Shown here in pieces: positions 53,909 to 63,290 of a stretch of DNA of 64,000 nt (position 1 is its first letter; every line of letters begins with the position of its first letter). Made by a program: the position numbers and the translations under genes. A model generated the notes under the pieces. It was not told where the DNA came from, made no database searches, and was given only the letters and a program-made list of their open reading frames with translations. The stretch comes from a virus (taxonomy: Duplodnaviria > Caudoviricetes). Location: the IMG/VR virus record IMGVR_UViG_3300009873_000003, positions 1 through 64,000 of that record. The stretch is one strand, 5' to 3'.

Positions 53909-53959
53909 AAAAAAAAAGACTTGAAAGCTAGATTAGATAGCTCTCAAGTCTTTCTTTTT
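53909..53959. terminator. bidirectional terminator
   Basis: AAAGACTTGAAAGCTA/TAGCTCTCAAGTCTTT with A and T tracts. Confidence 0.8.
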
Positions 53960-54052
53960 AGGCTTATTCTCAAACGCCCGCTCGCTCTTTTTAAAAAAGA
54001 GTGAAAACCGTTATTACCTCTATCGCTTGAGGCTCTCGACAAAGTCTCAATC

Positions 54053-54081
54053 ATTCTAACATACTGATTTGCGTTTGTCAA
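54053..54081 (-). promoter_or_regulatory. sigma70 promoter (leftward)
   Basis: TTGACA-17-TAGAAT with TG. Confidence 0.75.
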
Positions 54082-54144: not shown

Positions 54145-54173
54145 TTGACAAGAGTTAAAAGTCGTGATATAAT
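54145..54173 (+). promoter_or_regulatory. consensus sigma70 promoter
   Basis: TTGACA-17-TATAAT with TG. Confidence 0.9.
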
Positions 54174-54179
54174 ATCAGC

Positions 54180-54290
54180 ATCTTCAAACGTTAGAGCACG
54201 TTCGACTTCAGCTTGCCTGTTTGAAGACTACGTCAAAAAGTCCAAACACAAAAAACGACTTAGAGAAATCAATCTCTAAGTCGTTTTTTT
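54180..54290 (+). ncRNA. putative structured small RNA, copy 1
   Basis: Consensus promoter, no ORF, TCTTCAAAC/GTTTGAAGA stem, terminator 54250-54290; homolog at 61784. Confidence 0.7.
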
Positions 54291-54307
54291 GCGTTCTTTC
54301 GCTGCTT

Positions 54308-54634
54308 CTAGAGAAAAACAGACAGCAAGAATTTTAGAACAACTTTCGTTTCAAACATAGATAGCACTATCTCAACGTGGTTGATGTTAAGGTAGAAGTC
54401 GTTGTCTGTTCTTTCTAGTTCGATTGTGACTCGATTAATTTCGATGGTTCGCTTGTCAGACGATTCGTTAGATTCAATCAAAGTGAAGAAGACAGTTCTT
54501 AGCAATTCTAAATCTGCTGATGCGAACAGATAGAAGCGAAAACGCACAGTTTCAGAACAGATGTCAATGTTCAACTTATCAGGTTCTGATGTTAACAGTA
54601 AAAAGTCATCTTGTTTAGTGATTTCTAATTCCAA
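54308..54634 (-). CDS. hypothetical protein
   Basis: GGAGG RBS. Confidence 0.6.
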   Translation of the reverse strand: MELEITKQDDFLLLTSEPDKLNIDICSETVRFRFYLFASADLELLRTVFFTLIESNESSDKRTIEINRVTIELERTDNDFYLNINHVEIVLSMFETKVVLKFLLSVFL

Positions 54635-54794
54635 AGTTCAGCCTCCAAAGTACATAGACAGGAATAACGACAGTGAGCAGATAGAAGACAATGATTTGTG
54701 TTGCGCTAACTTGCTTGACGTTGTCTCCAATGATTTCCAACACTTTGTCAACATAGACGAAAATCACAACAACCTTGATTAGCAACTCTAGCAT
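54615..54794 (-). CDS. 59-aa 2-TM protein
   Basis: MLELLIKVVVIFVY... fills the operon gap. Confidence 0.5.
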   Translation of the reverse strand: MLELLIKVVVIFVYVDKVLEIIGDNVKQVSATQIIVFYLLTVVIPVYVLWRLNFGIRNH

Positions 54795-55102
54795 AACTCT
54801 GTCCAGAATTTATAGAACAAAAGACTTGCTTCATTGTCGAGCACAATTGACATATCATTCACGCTGACACGATAAGTATAAGCGTCAGCGAGCGAAATGT
54901 CAAACGCTTGTCCATTGACGATGAAGCTTTCATGTTCTAGCACGCTGTCTAACGCTTGTCTAAAACTACTCACAGTCTCTGGAATGTTGGCTAAGGCAAA
55001 GTTTTGTTCTGTCGTTGCTGTCTGAAACAGAACATAGAAACATTGCGTTCCAACTTGAATTGTCAACGCTTCACACTCAGTGCAGAATTTAAACGTTATC
55101 AA
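54788..55102 (-). CDS. hypothetical protein
   Basis: Probable TTG start overlapping the end of the 55089 gene. Confidence 0.5.
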   Translation of the reverse strand: MITFKFCTECEALTIQVGTQCFYVLFQTATTEQNFALANIPETVSSFRQALDSVLEHESFIVNGQAFDISLADAYTYRVSVNDMSIVLDNEASLLFYKFWTELC

Positions 55103-56648
55103 ACAGCACACCGTCCCAGTCTTCACAAGCCCAAACAATCGAATTGCCTTGCACATCTGCTTCAACAACGCCTGTCGCATCAAAATAGCCAGCGAAATTG
55201 ACAATTTCTGGTTTGTCGTAGCAAGCTGAAATGTTCGTCACAACATTGCCTGATTCGCTCGACTCCATCACAGAAATGAAACTCTTGCCACCGTCTGCGC
55301 TCATCCAAAGCATGTTTATGCCGTGAAAGTTAGTTGCAGCATAAACGATGTCACCATCAACATTCTCTAGTGCTGTCACTGTGCCTAAAATGTTAGCAGA
55401 GCGTTGTACATTCCCTTGACAAACATAGTAGAGGTCATCTTCAACAGCCGCCAGAAACGAGCAGCAAGAGATAGCTTCAACGTGATGCACAATCCCTGCG
55501 CCATTGTTTAGATAGTAAGTTTGCGCAAGCTTTGTGTCGAGGTCTAGTTGTAAAACTCTACCATTGTTTGCAGAGATGAACGCTGTCGAGCAGTCGTCAC
55601 AAATGCTAACATCAGTGTACGAAATGCCTGTCAATGGCAACGTTCTGTTGCGCAAGACTTCATAAGTCTTTGTCGCAGTGTTGTAGAGCACAATGTTCGT
55701 GTCACCAACTAATACAACAATTTGTTCGCAACCGTCAGCAGAAATGAGCCTCTCTCCTGTCGGCAATACTGTTGACGGAATTGTGACTAAACTCGCACCA
55801 AGCGTTGAGCGAATTGTTGAGCCGAAGTTCCCATTCAGATTGACATAGTTAAAGCTCGTCCCATTTCCACCCTGCATGACGTTGCGATTAACAGGTGTAG
55901 CGCAGTCAATTTCATCACAGAAGGCTAAGCTGAACACCCGCCAAACATTCCCATCTGTGCGATAGAGAATTCTTGGCTTGACGCATTCAGCAGCACAACC
56001 ACAGTCTGTGTTACATTTAGCTAATTGAACTAAAAATGTTCCTGATGTGTTTGGACATAGACAGCAACTTGTGTCGCACGTCGTGAAACTGTCAATGATA
56101 GGACCATCAGCAAGGATAGTAGCGACACTTAGCGTAGGTTTGGGTGCAGTGAAGGCGTACATGGTCTCAAAGTTGAAATCAACCGTTTCTGTCACAACAC
56201 CTTGTTCTGATTCTTGCTTAGCAAAGATGTTAGTCAGACTATAGTTCGTCACTTCAATATTTTGCAGCACAATGATGCGTTCAAACTGCGCAAAAACACT
56301 TGGGTCGGTGCAACGCCCAATGTGAATCTGAGCGTCGAACAGACAGCCTTGCTGGTAGAGTTCCTCTAACACACTATTGCCTAAGCTATAGTTTGTCGAG
56401 AATGAACCTGAACCACTTTCTTCTTTCGTTTTGATTTCAGTCACAATGTCGAAACTGTCGTAGCTCGTTGGCGAAGGACAATAGATTTTCTGTCGCTCCG
56501 CCTTACTCTTACTCAAGTCACCTACACTAATGCAAGAATGATAGGTGTAGTCTGAACAGCAGCAGTTCGATTGTGCACGCTTGAGAAAAAGTCTCGTCTG
56601 ATTGTTAATCACAACGTCGGAATTCTTTCTTCTTTTTAATCTTGCCAT
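55089..56648 (-). CDS. tail tube-like N-domain + propeller protein (paralog 3, Cys-rich)
   Basis: YHSC, IYCPSP..YD.F, GCLFDAQIHIGRC.DP; SADGGKSF. Confidence 0.55.
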   Translation of the reverse strand: MARLKRRKNSDVVINNQTRLFLKRAQSNCCCSDYTYHSCISVGDLSKSKAERQKIYCPSPTSYDSFDIVTEIKTKEESGSGSFSTNYSLGNSVLEELYQQGCLFDAQIHIGRCTDPSVFAQFERIIVLQNIEVTNYSLTNIFAKQESEQGVVTETVDFNFETMYAFTAPKPTLSVATILADGPIIDSFTTCDTSCCLCPNTSGTFLVQLAKCNTDCGCAAECVKPRILYRTDGNVWRVFSLAFCDEIDCATPVNRNVMQGGNGTSFNYVNLNGNFGSTIRSTLGASLVTIPSTVLPTGERLISADGCEQIVVLVGDTNIVLYNTATKTYEVLRNRTLPLTGISYTDVSICDDCSTAFISANNGRVLQLDLDTKLAQTYYLNNGAGIVHHVEAISCCSFLAAVEDDLYYVCQGNVQRSANILGTVTALENVDGDIVYAATNFHGINMLWMSADGGKSFISVMESSESGNVVTNISACYDKPEIVNFAGYFDATGVVEADVQGNSIVWACEDWDGVLFDNV

Positions 56649-57401
56649 TTACTTATATTCCCATAGATAATCGGGAGTAGTTGCCGTCCCACCGAACCAA
56701 AAACCTGTGCCGCAATTCCAAGGACCGTTAGCAGCAACCCACGTCAATGCTTCAGCATCTGTCGGATTATTGCTGTCTGCGAACGCTGTGCTAGGAATCG
56801 CTTGATAGGTTAGACACTCATCTGTGGCTAACACACAGAAAGTTTGCTGGAAAGAGTTCGTATTTCCGTTACTATCCGTCACTGTCAACGTCACTGTATA
56901 AGAACCAGCTTGTGAGACTGTGAACGTTGGGTTAGGTGATGTCGTGCTTGAGAACGTCAACGTTCCAGGTCCGGAAGCAGTCCAAGCGTGTGTTAGTGTC
57001 ACACCGTCTTGCGTTGATGTTGACGAGTTGCCATTCAACGAACCGCCCAAAGGTGTTGTCGTGTAGGAAAAGAGGGCAACAGGCAATGGCGTGCCAACAG
57101 CGACACTAAAGTCAATGCCAGCCGCTGTGACAGCGATTATCACACTACCATCTGTCGATGTGAGATTGACAACTTCGTTGCAGCAAATGTCCTGCGAACC
57201 AGAAACTGAACTAAATCTTAAACAACAGCTTCCTTGCGTTGTCCAGTTGGCACTATTGCAAGGGTCCGCTCCTGTCAAAACCCAAATTGAGCCATCCGCA
57301 CCAACAAACGTCGAACCAGGCTGAGCAGAGCTTAGACAAGTGACGGCACAATTAGGAATGTTGAAAACGTCTGAGCTAAAATTACTCTGACAGCACGCCA
57401 T
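56649..57401 (-). CDS. Cys-rich PKD-domain virion protein
   Basis: MACCQ start; AGSYTVTLTVTD. Confidence 0.65.
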   Translation of the reverse strand: MACCQSNFSSDVFNIPNCAVTCLSSAQPGSTFVGADGSIWVLTGADPCNSANWTTQGSCCLRFSSVSGSQDICCNEVVNLTSTDGSVIIAVTAAGIDFSVAVGTPLPVALFSYTTTPLGGSLNGNSSTSTQDGVTLTHAWTASGPGTLTFSSTTSPNPTFTVSQAGSYTVTLTVTDSNGNTNSFQQTFCVLATDECLTYQAIPSTAFADSNNPTDAEALTWVAANGPWNCGTGFWFGGTATTPDYLWEYK

Positions 57402-57723
57402 CGTCATCACCTCCTAACATTTGTTCAGAATAGATGTAGAACTCTGCGACGTCTAAGCGTTCGTCTTTCTCGCTTTCTGCTTCAACCTCGCTAACTAGAT
57501 TTTCATATTCAATATCGTCAAGCACATCTTCAGGCCCAAGTAGGAACTTCTGAAACTCACCATAAGTGTCATTCGTGACAGGTTCAAGGAACCCAGCGTT
57601 CACTGTCTGCTCTTGGCCTGGGACTAACGCAACTCGACTAAACTTATTCGCTTCTCCCCATCCTAAAACTGGAAGATAGGAGATTCGCTTCTCTGCTCTA
57701 TCTAAAAACTTTGCAATTATCAT
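57382..57723 (-). CDS. acidic hypothetical protein
   Basis: Coupled ORF. Confidence 0.6.
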   Translation of the reverse strand: MIIAKFLDRAEKRISYLPVLGWGEANKFSRVALVPGQEQTVNAGFLEPVTNDTYGEFQKFLLGPEDVLDDIEYENLVSEVEAESEKDERLDVAEFYIYSEQMLGGDDDGVLSE

Positions 57724-57725
57724 CT

Positions 57726-58166
57726 TCACTCCAAACAATTCGCTGAAATAAACACATAGAAATAGTTGTTATTATGTTCGTAGTAGCCGACACCAACCTC
57801 ATCCTGATTGTTAAAAAAACCGATGCCGAGTAGATGGTCGTGGTGCGCTGCACTATTTCTTAAACGTTCGTAGGCATCTGTGACTGTCTGCGAACCAACT
57901 GCAATCGATTCAATCTGATTGCCATTGTCCGCAAACCCTGTCTTACATCCAAAATCAGCAGCCAGTTTATTTGAACAATAACCGTTAATACAATGCGCCA
58001 CAATGCCCGTCTCAGCCATTAACTTAGCTTTGTAGTTTGCAGCGTTGACTAAACGTTCGTCTAAACGCATCACTGGCCGCTGTTGCTCAATATCAGCAGA
58101 CCAGACCTCGTAGCCCTGCTGCTGAACCGATAGTAACATCAAAATGAGCGGTAGCATTAGTTTCAT
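57726..58166 (-). CDS. secreted CAP (SCP) domain protein
   Basis: L..AA..KA..MA.....H, E.IA, S..H...LL, VGVGY. Confidence 0.75.
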   Translation of the reverse strand: MKLMLPLILMLLSVQQQGYEVWSADIEQQRPVMRLDERLVNAANYKAKLMAETGIVAHCINGYCSNKLAADFGCKTGFADNGNQIESIAVGSQTVTDAYERLRNSAAHHDHLLGIGFFNNQDEVGVGYYEHNNNYFYVFISANCLE

Positions 58167-58202
58167 TATAACGGTTTTCCTTACTTAATCAAGTTCTAGT
58201 TC

Positions 58203-58254
58203 GTCAAGCTTTCATGCGTGAAAGCTTGACAAATTATACCGCATGTGCTATGCT
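58203..58254 (+). promoter_or_regulatory. palindrome overlapping a sigma70 promoter
   Basis: GTCAAGCTTTCA-TGCG-TGAAAGCTTGAC; TTGACA-17-TATGCT. Confidence 0.7.
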
Positions 58255-58305
58255 TTCAGCAATAAAAACATCAAGAAAAGCTTGTTAAAAAGAAAGTGTT
58301 AAACA

Positions 58306-58968
58306 ATGTACGTAGAATTCACAAATTTTCTAAATGAGCGTGACTTGAACCTAGAACTGCTGTTTAGCTACGGCTCGCAGGTCTATAATCTAGATAATGC
58401 GTCGAGTGACTATGACTTGATGGCTGTCGTGTCGCAGCAACCAGACACCTACCTTGGACTGCACGATGCGAATCGGTCTTGGGGTCACTTCACGCACGAC
58501 AACGTCACTGTGCAATTTCTTGATTTGAAACGCTTCTATCAGCTTGCCGAAAGTAGCAATTTCACGCTCTATGTTGGACTGCGGAATTTGACCTTCACTG
58601 CACCCTTGCAGCTACCGAACCCTCGCACGTTTAGCTTGCGCAAGCTTGCACATCATTGTCTTGGTCTTGTCGATAACAAAAGTCAACGTCAGTATATGAA
58701 GGCATACAGCGCATTGTTCGTCATGTTTCTAGTGCAGAACGGGCATCATCCAGCAAGTCTTGACTATCGCTATCTACTAGACAATGTTCGCTCTGTTCCT
58801 GACAATGTGAAACGGCTGCTCGAACTTAAAAAGACAGGCGAGGCAAAACTCTCTGACGTTGCCGTAAACGCACCGTACACGCACGATGAAGTTAACTTTC
58901 TATCTGACGAAAAACACTCTTATAATGATTTCTGGCTTGATTGGCTGAAGGAGCGCTATGTCTTCTAG
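58306..58968 (+). CDS. Pol-beta superfamily nucleotidyltransferase
   Basis: YGSQVY.L....SDYD motif. Confidence 0.8.
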   Translation: MYVEFTNFLNERDLNLELLFSYGSQVYNLDNASSDYDLMAVVSQQPDTYLGLHDANRSWGHFTHDNVTVQFLDLKRFYQLAESSNFTLYVGLRNLTFTAPLQLPNPRTFSLRKLAHHCLGLVDNKSQRQYMKAYSALFVMFLVQNGHHPASLDYRYLLDNVRSVPDNVKRLLELKKTGEAKLSDVAVNAPYTHDEVNFLSDEKHSYNDFWLDWLKERYVF

Positions 58969-60403
58969 TAACGTTTGGTCGAACTACGACTACCTTGAAC
59001 AAAACATCGAAGTGCGTATGATTCTTGACTCGCTTCGTGAATCGAACGGCACAAGAGTTTCAACAATGCTCTGGCGTGTGCCAAGATTTCTGTTACCGCA
59101 ACTGAACACTTACAGAACATTTTCAAGAAATGTTTCAAGCTGTTTGACTGGCGACAACGAACTCTACTTCGACAAACCAGTTGCTATTGCTAAAGGTAAA
59201 CGCTTTCTCAACAAAGTGTCTTTAGACACGCTCTATCGAAAATGGACCTACGGCAATTCGATAGGCAGAACTCAGAAACATGTCGTCCGTGCACTGTGTT
59301 TGCGTTGTTACGATTTCGACAAAAATGAATTTAAACACACCCATATTCGTGACATTCGTTATGAAGGCTTGAAAGAGGTCTACAAAGTAACATTCTCTAA
59401 CAAATTCACGCTAACCCTAACAAGCGACCATCGTCTACTAACCACAGAAGGTTGGAAGACGCTGCAAGACTACGGTTTACATGTTAAAGCTGACGGTCAG
59501 TGCGAATGGAACGAAGGACCGAAAATTGCTGCCAACGAAAAGCTAACGAAACCAAGTGGCCCTCATCCACGCTGGGTGAGAATTAGAAATATAGAATATG
59601 TTGGTGTTGAAAAAGTCTACGATGTTGAAGTTGAGGACGAAAACGAATCGTTTGTCTGCAATGGCATCGTTGTTCACAACAGTCGTGCTAAACGTTTTTC
59701 TAAAACTGTTTCAGAAGTCCTCGACAATCCATATGTGCCGTACATCTGGCAAGCTGACCATGCTGGAATGCAGACGGAAGAAAGATTAGAAGCTTGGAAA
59801 ACACCGATTGCGAACTTTCTGTGGAATGCTTCAATTCAAACTCAAACCTTTTGGGCTGGCTGTCTCTCAAGATTAGGCGTCTCGAAACAATACACAAATC
59901 GTCTAATTGAACCTTACATGTATGTTGACTATCTCGTGACAGCGAACGATTTTGACAATTTCTTGACGCAACGTGACAGCTTTCACGCTCAATTAGAAAT
60001 CCAAGTGCTTGCCCGTCGCCTACGTCTAGCACTAGAATGCAGCGAACCAACAGTGCTAAAAACGAATGAATGGCACCTGCCGTTTGTGACTAATTCTGAA
60101 AAAGAGAACATGTTTGATGCAATCAGACTAAGTGTTGCACGCTGCGCTCGAACCAGTTATCTTGCACCTAACATTGAAACAGACAAACAAGCTGACTTCA
60201 AGCTGTTCGCACGTTTAGCTAAAGACTATCACCTATCACCTTTTGAACATCAAGTCGTGATGTCAGGAACTTGGGGCGGGAATTTGCAAGGCGTGACACA
60301 ACTTCGCAAAGTTCTCGAAACTCACCTTACCTTCACTGATGGCGTGTTCAATTTGAAAGAGTTTGAAAATTTGTTAATGAATCGTCTTTCTCTGTTCGAC
60401 TAA
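58958..60403 (+). CDS. thyX: flavin-dependent thymidylate synthase with intein
   Basis: PRFLL.QLNTYRTFSRNVSS|SRA, NRLIEPY, AQLEI, ARCARTSY, HLSPFEH. Confidence 0.85.
   Translation: MSSSNVWSNYDYLEQNIEVRMILDSLRESNGTRVSTMLWRVPRFLLPQLNTYRTFSRNVSSCLTGDNELYFDKPVAIAKGKRFLNKVSLDTLYRKWTYGNSIGRTQKHVVRALCLRCYDFDKNEFKHTHIRDIRYEGLKEVYKVTFSNKFTLTLTSDHRLLTTEGWKTLQDYGLHVKADGQCEWNEGPKIAANEKLTKPSGPHPRWVRIRNIEYVGVEKVYDVEVEDENESFVCNGIVVHNSRAKRFSKTVSEVLDNPYVPYIWQADHAGMQTEERLEAWKTPIANFLWNASIQTQTFWAGCLSRLGVSKQYTNRLIEPYMYVDYLVTANDFDNFLTQRDSFHAQLEIQVLARRLRLALECSEPTVLKTNEWHLPFVTNSEKENMFDAIRLSVARCARTSYLAPNIETDKQADFKLFARLAKDYHLSPFEHQVVMSGTWGGNLQGVTQLRKVLETHLTFTDGVFNLKEFENLLMNRLSLFD
59141..59680 (+). mobile_element. mini-intein (180 aa)
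   Basis: Starts CLTGD, block B TSDH, ends VYDVEV...GIVVHN followed by Ser. Confidence 0.9.
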
Positions 60404-60490
60404 CATTCGTGCTAAACTTGCTGCTGCTCTCTCTGCTCTCAACAATCATTGTCTATGTCTGCCTTGTTGCTGCTAGCAGAGCAGACGAAA

Positions 60491-60523
60491 AATCCCGCCG
60501 TAAGTTTAGAAAACGGCGGGATT
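60491..60523. terminator. hairpin between convergent genes
   Basis: AATCCCGCCGT/ACGGCGGGATT. Confidence 0.65.
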
Positions 60524-60554
60524 ATGGCTGACGCCAGACAGCTATGGCTGAAGC

Positions 60555-61673
60555 CTACTTCAAGAACTCTTCGCTAACCCAACCTGTGTAGTGAGTGTTA
60601 GGGACACTAACGTTCGCCCAACCGTTCGTCCTCGAATGAACCTGAACAGTTTGGCCTTCGACTAAAACAGTCAGAATCTTCCCCTTGACCATCGTTTCCC
60701 TTAAATTTAAACCAGCTTCAGCAGCCACTGTCATGAACTTGCCAGTGCTTGGAAAGGTTGGTTCAATTTTAATTGGCGGTTTTGCGGAATAGTTATGCCG
60801 ATAATCCCACTGAAGCGATTGCTTGAAATCTTCTAAACTTCTGTCATCAATATGCCATTTCGCATCGCTAGCATTAAATCTGAATAAGATGCCAGCAAGA
60901 ATTTTCTGCTGCTCTTTCTGGTTCCATTCATTCAGTTTGTGATAAAACGTCTGCACCCAACGTCCAGAGTGATTTTCGCTCCAGGGGCCATCACCGTTAG
61001 CCTCAGTGACTAGAACTTCGAGATGTTTAAGCTCAGCAGGAATTGCGTGCATCTGTTCATAGAGGTTTTGAAAGCTAAATTCTCGATGTTCATAGGGCGG
61101 GTTCATCTTCTGACTAACATCAAACTTTTCTAACTCATAACCTTTTGTGTAAGCGTGAAATGAAAAGAAATCAATCTTTTCAAAACCAATCGCTTTTGCT
61201 AGCTTAGGAATCAAATCAACCCAGTCACCTTCAAACGTCGGATTCCAGGGCGCTGGCGGAGCGAATGTTACCTTAGCATTAGGATTCGCACGCTTAATCG
61301 CTGCATAAACTTTAGCGTAACAACTAACATAATCAGACAACGAAGGCTTGATGCCGTCGGGCCATTCCCACTCAAGCGAAAGCTCGTTGCCGATTTGATA
61401 GTAATTGATGTTGGTCGAATTTCTGACAAACTGTTCAACCCTGCTTGCAAACTCGTCATACTTGTCTGGTCTTGGTATCGTGCCTGTTCTCCCATACCCC
61501 CAGTTCAATCTGACAATAGGCGTCAAGTGAGGAACGTCCCACTTTATTCCATCATAGTTACCAGAAATTTCCGTTAACAGTAAGACCCAAGCCTCTCGAC
61601 CAGCGTCACGGACAATGTTCGACCAGCGTTCGTCGAACTCATGAATTCCGTAAATGTTTTTTGACATCTTCAC
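60555..61673 (-). CDS. clan GH-A-like glycoside hydrolase with C-terminal SH3b domain
   Basis: QIGNE acid/base, SFHAY, VTEAN nucleophile; GLNLRE...GWVSEEFL. Confidence 0.75.
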   Translation of the reverse strand: MKMSKNIYGIHEFDERWSNIVRDAGREAWVLLLTEISGNYDGIKWDVPHLTPIVRLNWGYGRTGTIPRPDKYDEFASRVEQFVRNSTNINYYQIGNELSLEWEWPDGIKPSLSDYVSCYAKVYAAIKRANPNAKVTFAPPAPWNPTFEGDWVDLIPKLAKAIGFEKIDFFSFHAYTKGYELEKFDVSQKMNPPYEHREFSFQNLYEQMHAIPAELKHLEVLVTEANGDGPWSENHSGRWVQTFYHKLNEWNQKEQQKILAGILFRFNASDAKWHIDDRSLEDFKQSLQWDYRHNYSAKPPIKIEPTFPSTGKFMTVAAEAGLNLRETMVKGKILTVLVEGQTVQVHSRTNGWANVSVPNTHYTGWVSEEFLK

Positions 61674-61748
61674 TCCTTTTTAAATTAGCGTCTTGAACCT
61701 TAGCATAGCATTCTAACAAGCAGTTTTCAATTTCGCTCAAATTCGTGC

Positions 61749-61777
61749 TTGACAAAGTGTTGAAGATGGGATAGGGT
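61749..61777 (+). promoter_or_regulatory. sigma70-type promoter, divergent from leftward TTGAAA-17-TATGCT
   Basis: TTGACA-17-TAGGGT. Confidence 0.6.
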
Positions 61778-61783
61778 TAAGTC

Positions 61784-61895
61784 ACTCTCAAACGTCAGTA
61801 GTAAGTTCGACTTCACCTTAACTGTTTGAAGAGCGATTTAAAAAAGTCACACAAGTTTTGTCTGATTCTTGTTAAAAATCAGACATTTTTCTTTT
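61784..61895 (+). ncRNA. putative structured small RNA, copy 2
   Basis: Shares CAAACG, GTTCGACTTCA, CTGTTTGAAGA and AAAAAGTC with copy 1; followed by TGTCTGATT/AATCAGACA terminator. Confidence 0.65.
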
Positions 61896-61938
61896 TAAAA
61901 CTGTCCTTCAATCGTTCTAAAATTAAGGTTCACGCACC

Positions 61939-62256
61939 ATGCCTCAATTCTATGTCGCTTTTCTAAAAACTGAAGAAAAAATGTTAGAAGCAGGTATTGT
62001 GACGAAATTTGAAGCTATCACAGTGACACCTGTCATCAAGTTCGCAGACGTTCCTGCAAGCGAATCGTTCCCTATTGTCGCTGTTCGAGCACCTGCTGGT
62101 GTGCGCTTTCTTCTTTCGAGTCACACGCATGTCGTCAACGAGCTTGGCACAATTGCTGATACTGTTAGCGCAGAACATCTGCAACAAATGCTTCGCTTCT
62201 TTGAAAGTTGGGCTGCTTCCTCACCAGCAACAAGAGAGTTAAAACTAGTACGTTAA
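61939..62256 (+). CDS. hypothetical protein
   Basis: AAGGT RBS. Confidence 0.6.
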   Translation: MPQFYVAFLKTEEKMLEAGIVTKFEAITVTPVIKFADVPASESFPIVAVRAPAGVRFLLSSHTHVVNELGTIADTVSAEHLQQMLRFFESWAASSPATRELKLVR

Positions 62257-62266
62257 AGGAGCCATC

Positions 62267-62923
62267 TTGATTCGATTAATCTTAACTATCATTCTCTCAC
62301 TCATCCTTTTTTTTTCAGCTTTCTATATTCTAAAAGCTGAAACAATTGCCCCAGTCCCTCCTGTTTTAATCGCTGACGATGGTGACATCTTAACGCTTCA
62401 CTATCGCCTCCCCTATGCTCGCAGAATTGCTGTCACTTACTCCTACGCTGATGGTGCAATCATGAATCGCACTTTTCTCGAACCTGTTCAGCATCGTGGT
62501 GTGACTGCAAATTTGACGATTTTTAACGCAGCGAGTCTACGAAATGTTCAAATCGTCGTGACTTTGCAAGACAACAGCATTCACACTTTCGAGCCGAGAG
62601 TTGTTGGAGAGAATGCACTCTTCATTCCATTAGTCGATGCCAATGGTGGTCCGAACAACGCTTTCACACTACCGCACGATGGCACATTGACTTTCTTAGC
62701 TGATGGTCAGATGCGAGTGCAAGTGAGGCTTGGTGCATACGATGTGATTCATGTTAGTGTTAAGTCAACGGCTGGCACAGTGTTCGAGCTATTTTCTGGA
62801 AACGATGTTGATTCAACCTTCCCATACGATGGAGAATATGTGCAAGCGTTCGGCTACGTTGTTAATGTCAATAATTTAGCATATGAAACAATCAAATTCG
62901 AGGAAATCCATGTTGAAGAATAG
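62267..62923 (+). CDS. secreted beta-rich protein
   Basis: Signal peptide; AAGGAG RBS. Confidence 0.65.
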   Translation: MIRLILTIILSLILFFSAFYILKAETIAPVPPVLIADDGDILTLHYRLPYARRIAVTYSYADGAIMNRTFLEPVQHRGVTANLTIFNAASLRNVQIVVTLQDNSIHTFEPRVVGENALFIPLVDANGGPNNAFTLPHDGTLTFLADGQMRVQVRLGAYDVIHVSVKSTAGTVFELFSGNDVDSTFPYDGEYVQAFGYVVNVNNLAYETIKFEEIHVEE

Positions 62924-63290
62924 CATAGTCATTCTTTTTTTTGTCCTGAGTCTGTTCCCTCATCAACTGCACGCAGCGGTTGAATCGTCATTTCCAACGC
63001 CTGTCATTCGCTACAGTGGCAACGAGCTTTTTCTAAACTATGAAGTCACTGGCGCTGAATATGTTGAAGTTAGTTATCGCTATCGGGATGCGACGGAACG
63101 AACAATAGTGCGCTTCAATGGCGAAGATGGAATTGTTGATATTAGCACAGTTTTCGCTAACGCTGATGAAATTCGTTTGAATTCATTTTTAGTCGTGATT
63201 GTGGTCAGCACCAGCGAAACCTATCATGAGATTCCAACTCTGTCTTACGCTGAACATTTCTACATTACGGTGGTGCTAAATGAAAGTTGA
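62883..63290 (+). CDS. secreted protein, possibly paralogous to the preceding gene's N-domain
   Basis: Signal peptide; L.L.Y...A..V.V.Y.Y.D pattern shared with the 62267 protein. Confidence 0.6.
   Translation: MKQSNSRKSMLKNSIVILFFVLSLFPHQLHAAVESSFPTPVIRYSGNELFLNYEVTGAEYVEVSYRYRDATERTIVRFNGEDGIVDISTVFANADEIRLNSFLVVIVVSTSETYHEIPTLSYAEHFYITVVLNES

What the first reader, a model, noticed from the sequence alone, without database searches (positions are those of the whole stretch)
54145..61895. Two paralogous, independently transcribed pseudoknot-like small RNAs
Seen: 54180-54290 and 61784-61895 each follow a TTGACA promoter and end in their own, different terminator. Both have an outer stem (TCAAAC/GTTTGA), an inner stem that differs in sequence but still pairs (GCA.G/C.TGC versus TAAG/CTTA), an invariant GTTCGACTTCA loop, and a 3' AAAAAGTC able to pair with loop GACTT. 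Copy 1 has no downstream same-strand gene, so it is not just a leader. Inference: an RNA family I do not recognise, probably abundant. It could be a protein decoy, such as a T-loop/tRNA mimic or a type III antitoxin-like pseudoknot acting against host defence.
Basis: partly seen in the sequence, partly recalled or inferred. Interest (0 to 1): 0.8.

Follow-up and report, generated by a model that had tools for sequence, protein, structure and literature searches.

The report
Multi-copy pseudoknot RNA cassette in phage
A 114-kb uncultured phage carries six copies (two in this window) of a small cassette made of a strong promoter, a roughly 65-base pseudoknotted RNA and a terminator. The RNA fold is backed by compensatory mutations in related phages, it matches no known RNA family, and its function is still unknown.

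Summary
The window is part of a 114,335-bp virus record that carries six copies of the cassette, not two:
- Subtype A, two copies: they stand alone at gene junctions and end in very strong two-way terminators.
- Subtype B, four copies: they sit directly in front of early operons (DNA polymerase III, ribonucleotide reductase, a helicase fragment, unknown genes).

Each cassette has a sigma-70-type promoter, an RNA that begins with its outer stem, and an intrinsic terminator.

Ten more units turned up in three related metagenomic phages, some in tandem. Across 14 units, 13 of 20 base pairs show changes on both sides.

Rfam 15 and ARAGORN find nothing. The tRNA-mimic and type III antitoxin readings fail their tests.

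Function is open. My best guess (0.45) is an abundant early RNA that works in trans by binding a protein or small ligand, with its terminator also throttling the operon behind it. The main rival (0.28) is a cis-acting antitermination or attenuation site. Expression could not be tested.

First-stage readers of an overlapping window of this same genome had already noted five of the six copies.

The parts
54145..54173 (+). Promoter of copy A1: TTGACA, 17 nt, TGaTATAAT
   Evidence: 12/12 match with extended TG; sequence read.
54180..54242 (+). Pseudoknot RNA core of A1. P1 pairs 54181-54190 with 54218-54227. P2 pairs 54196-54200 with 54212-54216. The loop is 54201-54211. The pseudoknot pairs 54204-54208 (GACUU) with 54238-54242 (AAGUC).
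   Evidence: CM hit of 81.9 bits; fold; covariation; coordinates.
54250..54289 (.). Strong two-way intrinsic terminator of A1 (17-pair stem, A-run before it and T-run after it). It also ends the convergent minus-strand genes.
   Evidence: hairpin energy -22.3 kcal/mol.
61749..61777 (+). Promoter of copy B1: TTGACA, 17 nt, TAGGGT. The -10 is degenerate and there is no TG.
   Evidence: Read and aligned with the other five promoters. It falls below the threshold of the scan.
61784..61848 (+). Pseudoknot RNA core of B1. P1 pairs 61785-61794 with 61823-61833 (one bulged A). P2 pairs 61801-61805 with 61817-61821. The loop is 61806-61816. The pseudoknot pairs 61809-61813 with 61844-61848.
   Evidence: CM hit of 88.5 bits.
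61860..61896 (+). Weaker terminator of B1 (GUCUGAUU/AAUCAGAC, about -8.7 kcal/mol, then a U-run), 49 nt before the 105-aa gene at 61939.
   Evidence: ORF list.
61939..63290 (+). First genes of the operon behind B1 (105, 218 and 135 aa; no family match). The operon runs on to 65094 outside the window.

Best explanation
The element is a dispersed cassette that encodes a new family of small pseudoknotted phage RNAs.

Shown or read from sequence:
- Host-type (sigma-70-like) promoters of near-consensus quality start transcription at or within a few bases of the outer stem P1 (9-11 bp).
- An asymmetric internal loop leads to a 4-5 bp inner stem P2, closed by an invariant G:C pair.
- The 11-12 nt loop opens with an invariant UU.
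- Loop bases 4-8 pair with a 3' tail segment that is always preceded by four or more A. This forms an intramolecular pseudoknot.
- An intrinsic terminator follows within 2-12 nt.

Inferred:
- The roughly 105-110 nt terminated RNA is the product. It is made early and in quantity from six genes.
- It acts in trans as a shape-specific binder of a protein or small ligand. Recognition would go through the conserved junction nucleotides (A18, G19, U24, U25, G27, C42 and the A-run, columns), while the helix sequences are free to drift.
- In the four B copies, and in one syntenic relative, the same cassette supplies the operon's promoter, so its terminator passively throttles the genes behind it.
- The cassette as a whole moves or recombines within and between these phages.
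For: - Six copies share promoter, core and terminator.
- Ten further units occur in relatives: seven standard units in ENA ERZ28653834 scaffold_335 and one in Logan SRR18899878_38296, plus two short-loop variants read by eye in JGI Ga0558116_00688.
- Covariation on 14 units: 87.8% of cells are paired, against 40-50% when partners are slid. Thirteen of 20 pairs change on both sides, and 0 of 500 shuffles reach the observed values.
- The pseudoknot columns were not part of the covariance model, yet 87% of their cells pair.
- Six different loop/tail versions exist, each complementary at a fixed offset.
- G-U pairs (6 at columns 11/44, 5 at columns 3/53) fit only the transcribed strand.
- In tandem units each loop matches its own tail and not its neighbour's. 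The pairing is therefore within one molecule.
- Trans action is favoured by three stand-alone units. A1, A2 and R26 have no same-strand gene behind them, have -22 to -24 kcal/mol two-way terminators, and A2 and R26 sit at the same syntenic slot.
- It is also favoured by tandem arrays and by the unrelated genes that follow different units.
- One relative has a plain promoter with neither unit nor terminator in front of the same PHP/polymerase operon. The terminator therefore travels with the RNA, not with the operon.
- The same intergenic slots in relatives hold other small promoter-RNA-terminator units.
Against:
- No binding partner is known.
- In B4 and in relative R18 the terminator ends 23-28 nt before the PHP/DNA polymerase start, with no room for another promoter. 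R18's terminator is strong at -18.4 kcal/mol. An essential operon therefore depends on read-through, which fits regulated antitermination at least as well as passive leakage.
- The family was found in only four phage genomes, so the evolutionary sample is small and partly non-independent.
- The alignment for P1 and P2 was fitted to the model and leans towards the structure.
Confidence: 0.45

Rival explanations
1. The unit is a cis-acting control site for transcription elongation. The nascent pseudoknot would make RNA polymerase resistant to the terminator that follows. It could do so alone, like HK022 put, or after binding a phage early protein, like lambda N at nut. Delayed-early operons (polymerase, helicase, ribonucleotide reductase) would then switch on after an immediate-early phase.
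For: - The order promoter, structured RNA, terminator, operon is seen in B1-B4 and R18, with no second promoter before PHP/polymerase.
- R18's terminator is strong.
- The RNA starts at +1 of several early promoters, as put and nut sites lie just behind PL and PR (my knowledge of those systems).
- First-stage note e1-5767063 reached the same inference.
Against: - Stand-alone units A1, A2 and R26 face into convergent or antisense genes.
- Tandem units occur.
- A relative drives the same operon from a plain promoter with no unit and no terminator.
- No sequence in the tail can form a competing antiterminator with the terminator stem. I checked this by eye on B, A, R18, R23f and R26.
- There is no sequence or structural likeness to put or boxA/boxB.
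Confidence: 0.28
2. The unit is a riboswitch-like aptamer that senses a small molecule and sets termination.
For: - Compact pseudoknot with an A-rich strand and about a dozen invariant unpaired or junction bases.
- A terminator follows directly.
- Some downstream genes deal with nucleotides: NT5C, class II ribonucleotide reductase, polymerase.
Against: - There is no overlap between aptamer and terminator that could give mutually exclusive folds.
- Downstream genes are heterogeneous or absent.
- No Rfam riboswitch matches even at E up to 10.
Confidence: 0.07
3. The unit is a self-cleaving ribozyme or an RNase processing module. It would cut polycistronic or tandem transcripts into unit-length RNAs and define the mRNA 5' end.
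For: - Tandem units abut with only 2-4 nt between one unit's tail and the next unit's P1.
- Small size, pseudoknot and conserved core bases.
- By my recollection, known small ribozymes are common in phage DNA.
Against: - No match to any ribozyme family in Rfam 15.
- Most units are single and already bounded by a transcription start and a terminator.
Confidence: 0.08
4. The cassette is mainly a mobile promoter-terminator repeat of the PeSL type. Its job would be genome shuffling and transcriptional insulation, and the RNA fold would have no function of its own.
For: - Copy number and position differ between close relatives.
- A TnpB-like gene lies between units in two relatives where this genome has a single unit.
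- Within this genome the whole cassette, promoter and terminator included, is conserved.
Against: - Selection acts on the RNA fold itself: there are compensatory changes in three helices, including a long-range pseudoknot that serves neither a promoter nor a terminator.
- PeSLs place the stem-loop upstream of the promoter and contain no transcribed structured domain (PMC4122927).
Confidence: 0.1

Closest known systems
PeSL (promoter-early stem-loop) cassettes of T4-like phages (PMC2839356, PMC4122927)
   Same: Both are short dispersed repeats that carry a near-consensus sigma-70 early promoter and a terminator-like hairpin. Both lie between genes of the early or variable regions and are associated with gene gain and loss between close relatives.
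   Different: In a PeSL the stem-loop lies upstream of the promoter and nothing structured is transcribed between them. Here the order is promoter, 65-nt covarying pseudoknot RNA, terminator, so the cassette is a transcription unit in itself.
HK022 put RNAs / lambda nut sites (processive antitermination)
   Same: Both are structured RNA of about 65-70 nt encoded immediately behind early promoters. Both occur in several copies per genome, with terminators and delayed-early genes downstream.
   Different: put consists of two stem-loops without a pseudoknot, and nut is boxA plus a 15-nt boxB hairpin. I see no sequence likeness. Stand-alone and tandem units have no parallel in those systems. This comparison rests on my knowledge of them, not on a tool.
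Type III antitoxin RNAs (ToxI, CptI, TenpI) and the phage pseudo-ToxI mimic
   Same: Both are small pseudoknotted RNAs, sometimes tandem, lying between a constitutive promoter and a terminator, and a phage-encoded version is known as an anti-defence mimic.
   Different: Antitoxin units are 36-45 nt, are near-identical direct repeats and precede a ToxN-type endoribonuclease gene. Units here are about 65 nt with an extra outer helix, tandem neighbours differ in sequence, and no common downstream gene or ToxN match was found.
H-type pseudoknot aptamers with an A-rich third strand (for example preQ1-I, SAM-II)
   Same: Both have a hairpin loop of about 11 nt that pairs with a 3' tail preceded by an A-run, a small size and a following terminator.
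   Different: Here an additional 9-11 bp helix (P1) is formed by the 5' end and the strand that links P2 to the tail. No expression-platform overlap exists, and there is no Rfam hit at E up to 10.
phi29 pRNA
   Same: Both are phage small RNAs made from a strong early promoter, with a loop complementarity that covaries between related phages.
   Different: In pRNA the covarying pairing is between molecules and builds a ring on the packaging motor, and there is one gene per genome. Here each unit's loop matches its own tail and there are up to eight units per genome.

Membership tests
Any Rfam 15 family | Score at or above the family's gathering threshold | tested here: not met
   There were 0 hits in the whole window at gathering thresholds. 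At E up to 10 on both loci only sub-threshold chance hits appeared, mostly on the terminators.
tRNA-like / T-loop mimic | T-arm geometry (5-bp stem, 7-nt UUCRANN loop with conserved C56 and A58) or a cloverleaf | tested here: not met
   ARAGORN finds no tRNA or tmRNA in the window. The loop is 11-12 nt. The third loop base is C, A or U, and the fifth belongs to the covarying pseudoknot helix (A, U or C).
Type III toxin-antitoxin antitoxin RNA | Near-identical tandem direct repeats of 36-45 nt | tested here: not met
   Units are about 65 nt. The six copies here are dispersed singles, and tandem units in L023 differ in all three helices.
Type III toxin-antitoxin antitoxin RNA | ToxN/AbiQ-type endoribonuclease gene directly behind the terminator | tested here: not met
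   The downstream genes are PHP/DNA polymerase III, NT5C/ribonucleotide reductase, a UvrD fragment and unknowns. PF13958 gave no match in the genome, but that search's control genomes were also silent.
HK022 put-type antiterminator RNA | Cis-acting suppression of downstream terminators without protein factors | not testable with these tools
   This needs in vitro transcription. The placement (promoter, RNA, terminator, operon) is compatible for B1-B4 and R18 but not for the stand-alone units.
HK022 put-type antiterminator RNA | Two adjacent stem-loops with conserved bulges | tested here: not met
   The fold here is nested P1/P2 plus a pseudoknot. The put architecture is quoted from memory.
PeSL promoter-terminator cassette | Stem-loop just upstream of a sigma-70-like early promoter, followed by a Shine-Dalgarno sequence and a start codon | tested here: not met
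   The order here is promoter, RNA, terminator. The PeSL layout comes from PMC4122927.
PeSL promoter-terminator cassette | Repeats flank genes that are gained or lost between close relatives | tested here: met
   A TnpB-like gene is bounded by units in L023 and L024, where this genome has one unit. Units are present or absent at syntenic sites.
Transcriptional riboswitch | The aptamer's 3' part overlaps an antiterminator or terminator so that the two folds exclude each other | tested here: not met
   The pseudoknot 3' strand ends 2-12 nt before the terminator stem. No consistent competing helix was found by eye in five unit types.
Transcriptional riboswitch | Consistent functional class of regulated genes | tested here: not met
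   The genes behind units are unrelated to each other, and three units have none.
TnpB omega/reRNA | Encoded at the 3' end of a tnpB gene | tested here: not met
   This genome has six units and no TnpB-like gene. Units flank the gene on both sides in relatives.

The most novel reading that the evidence does not exclude
The RNA is an anti-defence sponge. It would be a high-copy, immediately expressed aptamer that soaks up a host immune component, either a signalling nucleotide or a defence protein, by shape recognition. Gene multiplication and tandem arrays would supply the stoichiometric dose. This would be an RNA counterpart of protein sponges such as Tad1 and Acb2, beyond the known RNA mimics (pseudo-ToxI, RNA anti-CRISPRs). 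Nothing found here excludes it and nothing tests it.
Probability: 0.1. Interest if true: 0.9.

Novelty: new variant of a known kind. Interest (0 to 1): 0.62.

Why it matters
Structured RNAs of phages are poorly charted. This one has unusually clean comparative support for a three-helix pseudoknot fold from very few genomes. It occurs in up to eight copies per genome and sits on the strongest host-type promoters, in front of the replication genes. If it acts in trans, it is a candidate for a new class of early phage effector RNA. If it acts in cis, it would be a new antitermination or attenuation device controlling delayed-early genes in a clade of large uncultured phages. Either way it gives a compact, mutable, testable RNA. 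It is also an example of a regulatory cassette whose spread reshapes phage genomes.

Tried and rejected
- Rfam at gathering and permissive thresholds: nothing.
- ARAGORN: nothing in the window.
- GenBank phages, blastn on 8 kb: no match.
- IMG/VR pattern scans: none for the strict pattern. The looser pattern gave one hit, a coding-region coincidence. A family-wide pattern in IMG/VR and in species genomes gave 15 hits, none confirmed by the model.
- Terminase search in IMG/VR: no relatives.
- DNA polymerase III alignment in IMG/VR and JGI metagenomes: this returned only 22-31% relatives, in the metagenomes mostly cellular DnaE. No unit was found in the IMG/VR loci. The 80 metagenome loci were never scanned with the model, so that scan was wasted.
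- Relatives at about 50% polymerase identity (L020-L022) and several closer fragments (L019, L025, L143-L145): no unit.
- Walking 10 kb further along scaffold_335: no extra unit.
- Small-ORF reading: rejected. There is no ATG, and the only TTG frame is not kept between subtypes.
- DNA-level palindrome or operator reading: rejected, because the paired sequences differ between units and include G-U pairs.
- Intermolecular ring pairing: rejected for tandem units, since each loop matches its own tail.
- Whole-record searches of the relatives and a 'relatives' search were not possible.


Full report
WHAT IS THERE

The two stretches named in the finding read as described. Copy 1 has a perfect extended promoter: TTGACA at 54145, a 17-nt spacer and TGaTATAAT ending at 54173, a 12/12 match. 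A 17-pair terminator lies at 54250-54289. Copy 2 has TTGACA at 61749, a 17-nt spacer and a degenerate TAGGGT. Its weaker hairpin, GTCTGATT/AATCAGAC at 61860-61884, is followed by a T-run. The two copies align from the -35 box to the tail, and the core is nearly identical.

The window is the first 64 kb of a 114,335-bp IMG/VR virus record that CheckV rates 92% complete. A degenerate pattern and then a covariance model find exactly six copies. They lie at 54180(+), 61784(+), 65228(-), 91284(-), 94276(-) and 99457(-). They score 82-92 bits, and the next-best hit scores 13.9 bits.

The six copies fall into two subtypes:
- **A (two copies):** both end in AAAAACGACTTAGAGA...TCTCTAAGTCGTTTTTTT.
- **B (four copies):** all end in GTCTGATT...AATCAGAC followed by a T-run.

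Conservation starts just upstream of the -35 box, at GCGAGAAAGC-TTGACA-A. At least one other gene-less unit shares that promoter signature, so the signature belongs to a promoter class rather than to this RNA. The predicted start lies 7 nt after the -10 box, which is the first base of the outer stem.

CONTEXT

The genome is a phage: it has a large terminase, a helicase, long structural genes and an SH3 lysin.

The four B copies each head a same-strand gene run:
- B4 is followed after 23 nt by a PHP protein, DNA polymerase III alpha, DnaB and primase.
- B3 is followed by a UvrD-like fragment.
- B2 is followed by an NT5C nucleotidase and a class II ribonucleotide reductase.
- B1 (in the window) is followed after 49 nt by five genes without family matches.

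The two A copies stand alone. A1 lies between the end of the long plus-strand block (53891) and the end of a convergent minus-strand block. The first gene of that block (54308-54634) is homologous to a minus-strand gene of a relative. A2 lies between two plus-strand genes and points the other way.

RELATIVES

GenBank phages and IMG/VR hold nothing close. Protein searches with DNA polymerase III alpha and with the intein-bearing ThyX found a small clade of metagenomic phages at 57-67% identity, and a wider one at about 50%. I fetched DNA around those genes.

The model finds units in these places:
- **ENA ERZ28653834 scaffold_335:** one unit directly upstream of PHP/polymerase, syntenic with B4, with its own TTGACA-17-TAGACT promoter and a 10-12 bp terminator. 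Six more lie around a TnpB-like gene: two in tandem before it, then two tandem pairs after it.
- **Logan SRR18899878_38296:** one stand-alone unit at the slot syntenic with A2.
- **JGI contig Ga0558116_00688:** two short-loop variants read by eye on either side of its TnpB-like gene. They share P1, P2 (GUAAG/CUUAN), a loop that starts UUGG and a tail ACCCAA. The model does not score them.

No unit was found in the relatives at about 50% identity, nor in several closer fragments. One close relative drives the PHP/polymerase operon from a plain promoter with neither unit nor terminator.

STRUCTURE

RNAfold predicts the outer stem and the terminator in five of the six copies; in A2 the minimum-energy fold does not form the outer stem. 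The B copies are not unusually stable as a whole (z about -1.5), so the case rests on comparison.

I counted pairs on a 14-unit alignment:
- 87.8% of cells form standard pairs, against 40-50% when the partners are slid by 1-3 columns.
- 13 of 20 pairs show changes on both sides.
- None of 500 shuffles reaches the observed values.

Helix by helix:
- **P1:** 8 of 10 pairs change on both sides.
- **P2:** 3 of 5 pairs do so. Its closing G:C pair is invariant, and its outermost pair is often a mismatch.
- **Pseudoknot:** the model does not encode it, so these columns carry no fitting bias. They are 87% paired even though four rows are out of register by one column.

Read directly, the loop/tail pair is:
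- GACUU/AAGUC in all six copies here and in one relative unit
- GACUU/AGGUC, with a U-G pair, in one unit
- GUCAU/AUGAC in two units
- GUCUU/AAGAC
- GCACUU/AAGUGC
- GUCGUU/AACGAC
- GUUUCAUUU/AAAUGAAAC

The complement always lies at the same offset and directly after an A-run.

In tandem units each loop matches its own tail and not its neighbour's, so the pairing is intramolecular. G-U pairs are frequent (6 at columns 11/44, 5 at columns 3/53), which fixes the strand and argues for RNA rather than a DNA palindrome.

The invariant unpaired or junction bases are the A-G before P2, the UU that opens the loop, the G that starts the pseudoknot, the C after P2 and the A-run.

I infer a rod in which the tail runs back along P1 and P2, with the A-run lying in the P2 groove. 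This geometry is my inference and is not computed.

WHAT IT IS NOT

- **A known RNA family:** Rfam 15 gives nothing, even at E up to 10.
- **A tRNA or T-loop mimic:** ARAGORN gives nothing, and the would-be T-loop positions vary or covary.
- **A type III antitoxin array:** unit size, non-identical neighbours and heterogeneous downstream genes all speak against it. No ToxN match was found, though that search's controls were silent.
- **A TnpB guide RNA:** this genome has six units and no TnpB-like gene.
- **A PeSL:** a PeSL places the hairpin upstream of the promoter and has no transcribed structured domain (PMC4122927).
- **A coding sequence:** there is no ATG, and the one TTG frame is broken between subtypes.

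HOW IT MOST LIKELY WORKS

Two readings compete.

**For a trans-acting RNA gene:**
- Three units have no gene to regulate. They carry the strongest terminators, at -22 to -24 kcal/mol and two-way.
- Tandem arrays exist.
- The genes behind different units are unrelated.
- The terminator is present only where the unit is present.
- The same intergenic slots in relatives are occupied by other small promoter-RNA-terminator units.
- Free drift of helix sequences around fixed junction bases suggests recognition of shape by a protein or ligand rather than base pairing with a target.

**For a cis-acting site:**
- B4 and R18 leave no room for another promoter before an essential polymerase operon. Expression therefore needs read-through of a terminator that is weak in the B copies (about -9 kcal/mol) but strong in R18 (-18.4 kcal/mol).
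- I found no competing antiterminator helix. A cis mechanism would therefore have to act on the polymerase itself (put-like or N/nut-like) rather than by refolding.

I put the trans-acting binder, with passive attenuation as a side effect, at 0.45. Regulated antitermination gets 0.28, a ribozyme or processing module 0.08, a riboswitch 0.07 and a purely structural mobile cassette 0.10.

The cassette's patchy distribution suggests recombination between repeated cassettes, much as proposed for PeSLs. So does the TnpB-like gene bounded by units in two relatives, where this genome has a single unit.

LIMITS

- The host is unknown.
- The family is known from only four phage genomes.
- Whole records of the relatives could not be searched.
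- Fremin et al. 2023 (PMC10690425) list over 10,000 unnamed candidate structured RNAs from IMG/VR. I could not check whether this motif is among them.
- First-stage readers of an overlapping window of the same genome had already noted five of the six copies and the placement before dnaE. I re-derived both points independently.

Noticed in passing
window 53913-54081, minus strand: A second gene-less unit diverges from A1. It has TTGACA-17-TAGAAT with TG, an RNA of about 125 nt and a two-way terminator (53913-53950) that also ends the long plus-strand operon. Its core, CGGTTTTCACTCTTTTTTAAAAAGAGC, recurs at the syntenic site of relative L024 (5230-5330, minus strand).
   Followed up: partly
L023:19915-20160 and L024:17600-17800, minus strand: At the slot where this genome has A2, two relatives carry different short promoter-RNA-terminator units. 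These share a single-stranded AAUCUCCUAA motif that looks like an anti-Shine-Dalgarno sequence.
   Followed up: no
window 58958-60403 (+): The ThyX thymidylate synthase is interrupted by an intein (PF14890). Relatives carry larger versions with an HNH domain. The ribonucleotide reductase of relative L127 (1177-4152) also carries an intein with LAGLIDADG.
   Followed up: no
window 58306-58968 (+): An RlaP-family nucleotidyltransferase (RNA-repair pathway, PF10127, E 5e-12) sits directly upstream of ThyX and is conserved in all close relatives. Together with the many small RNA units and three tRNA genes, this suggests an RNA-centred early programme.
   Followed up: partly
L023:14832-16385 and L024:12949-14391: A TnpB-like gene (Cas12f1-like TNB domain) lies between pseudoknot units in two relatives and is absent from this genome. 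This looks like a gene gain or loss bounded by cassettes.
   Followed up: partly
L016:4300-7654 (genome 87800-91154, minus strand): DNA polymerase III alpha is split into a separate PHP protein (314 aa) and a polymerase body (806 aa) in this phage and its closest relatives. It is a single fused protein of about 1120 aa in the relatives at about 50% identity.
   Followed up: no
L016:10830-11751 (genome 94330-95251, minus strand): Three tRNA genes (Thr-TGT, Arg-TCT, Ser-TGA) lie just upstream of cassette B3.
   Followed up: no
L143:1-74: A relative's contig breaks 74 nt upstream of its polymerase gene, right after a terminator hairpin. An assembler might stop there at a repeated cassette.
   Followed up: no
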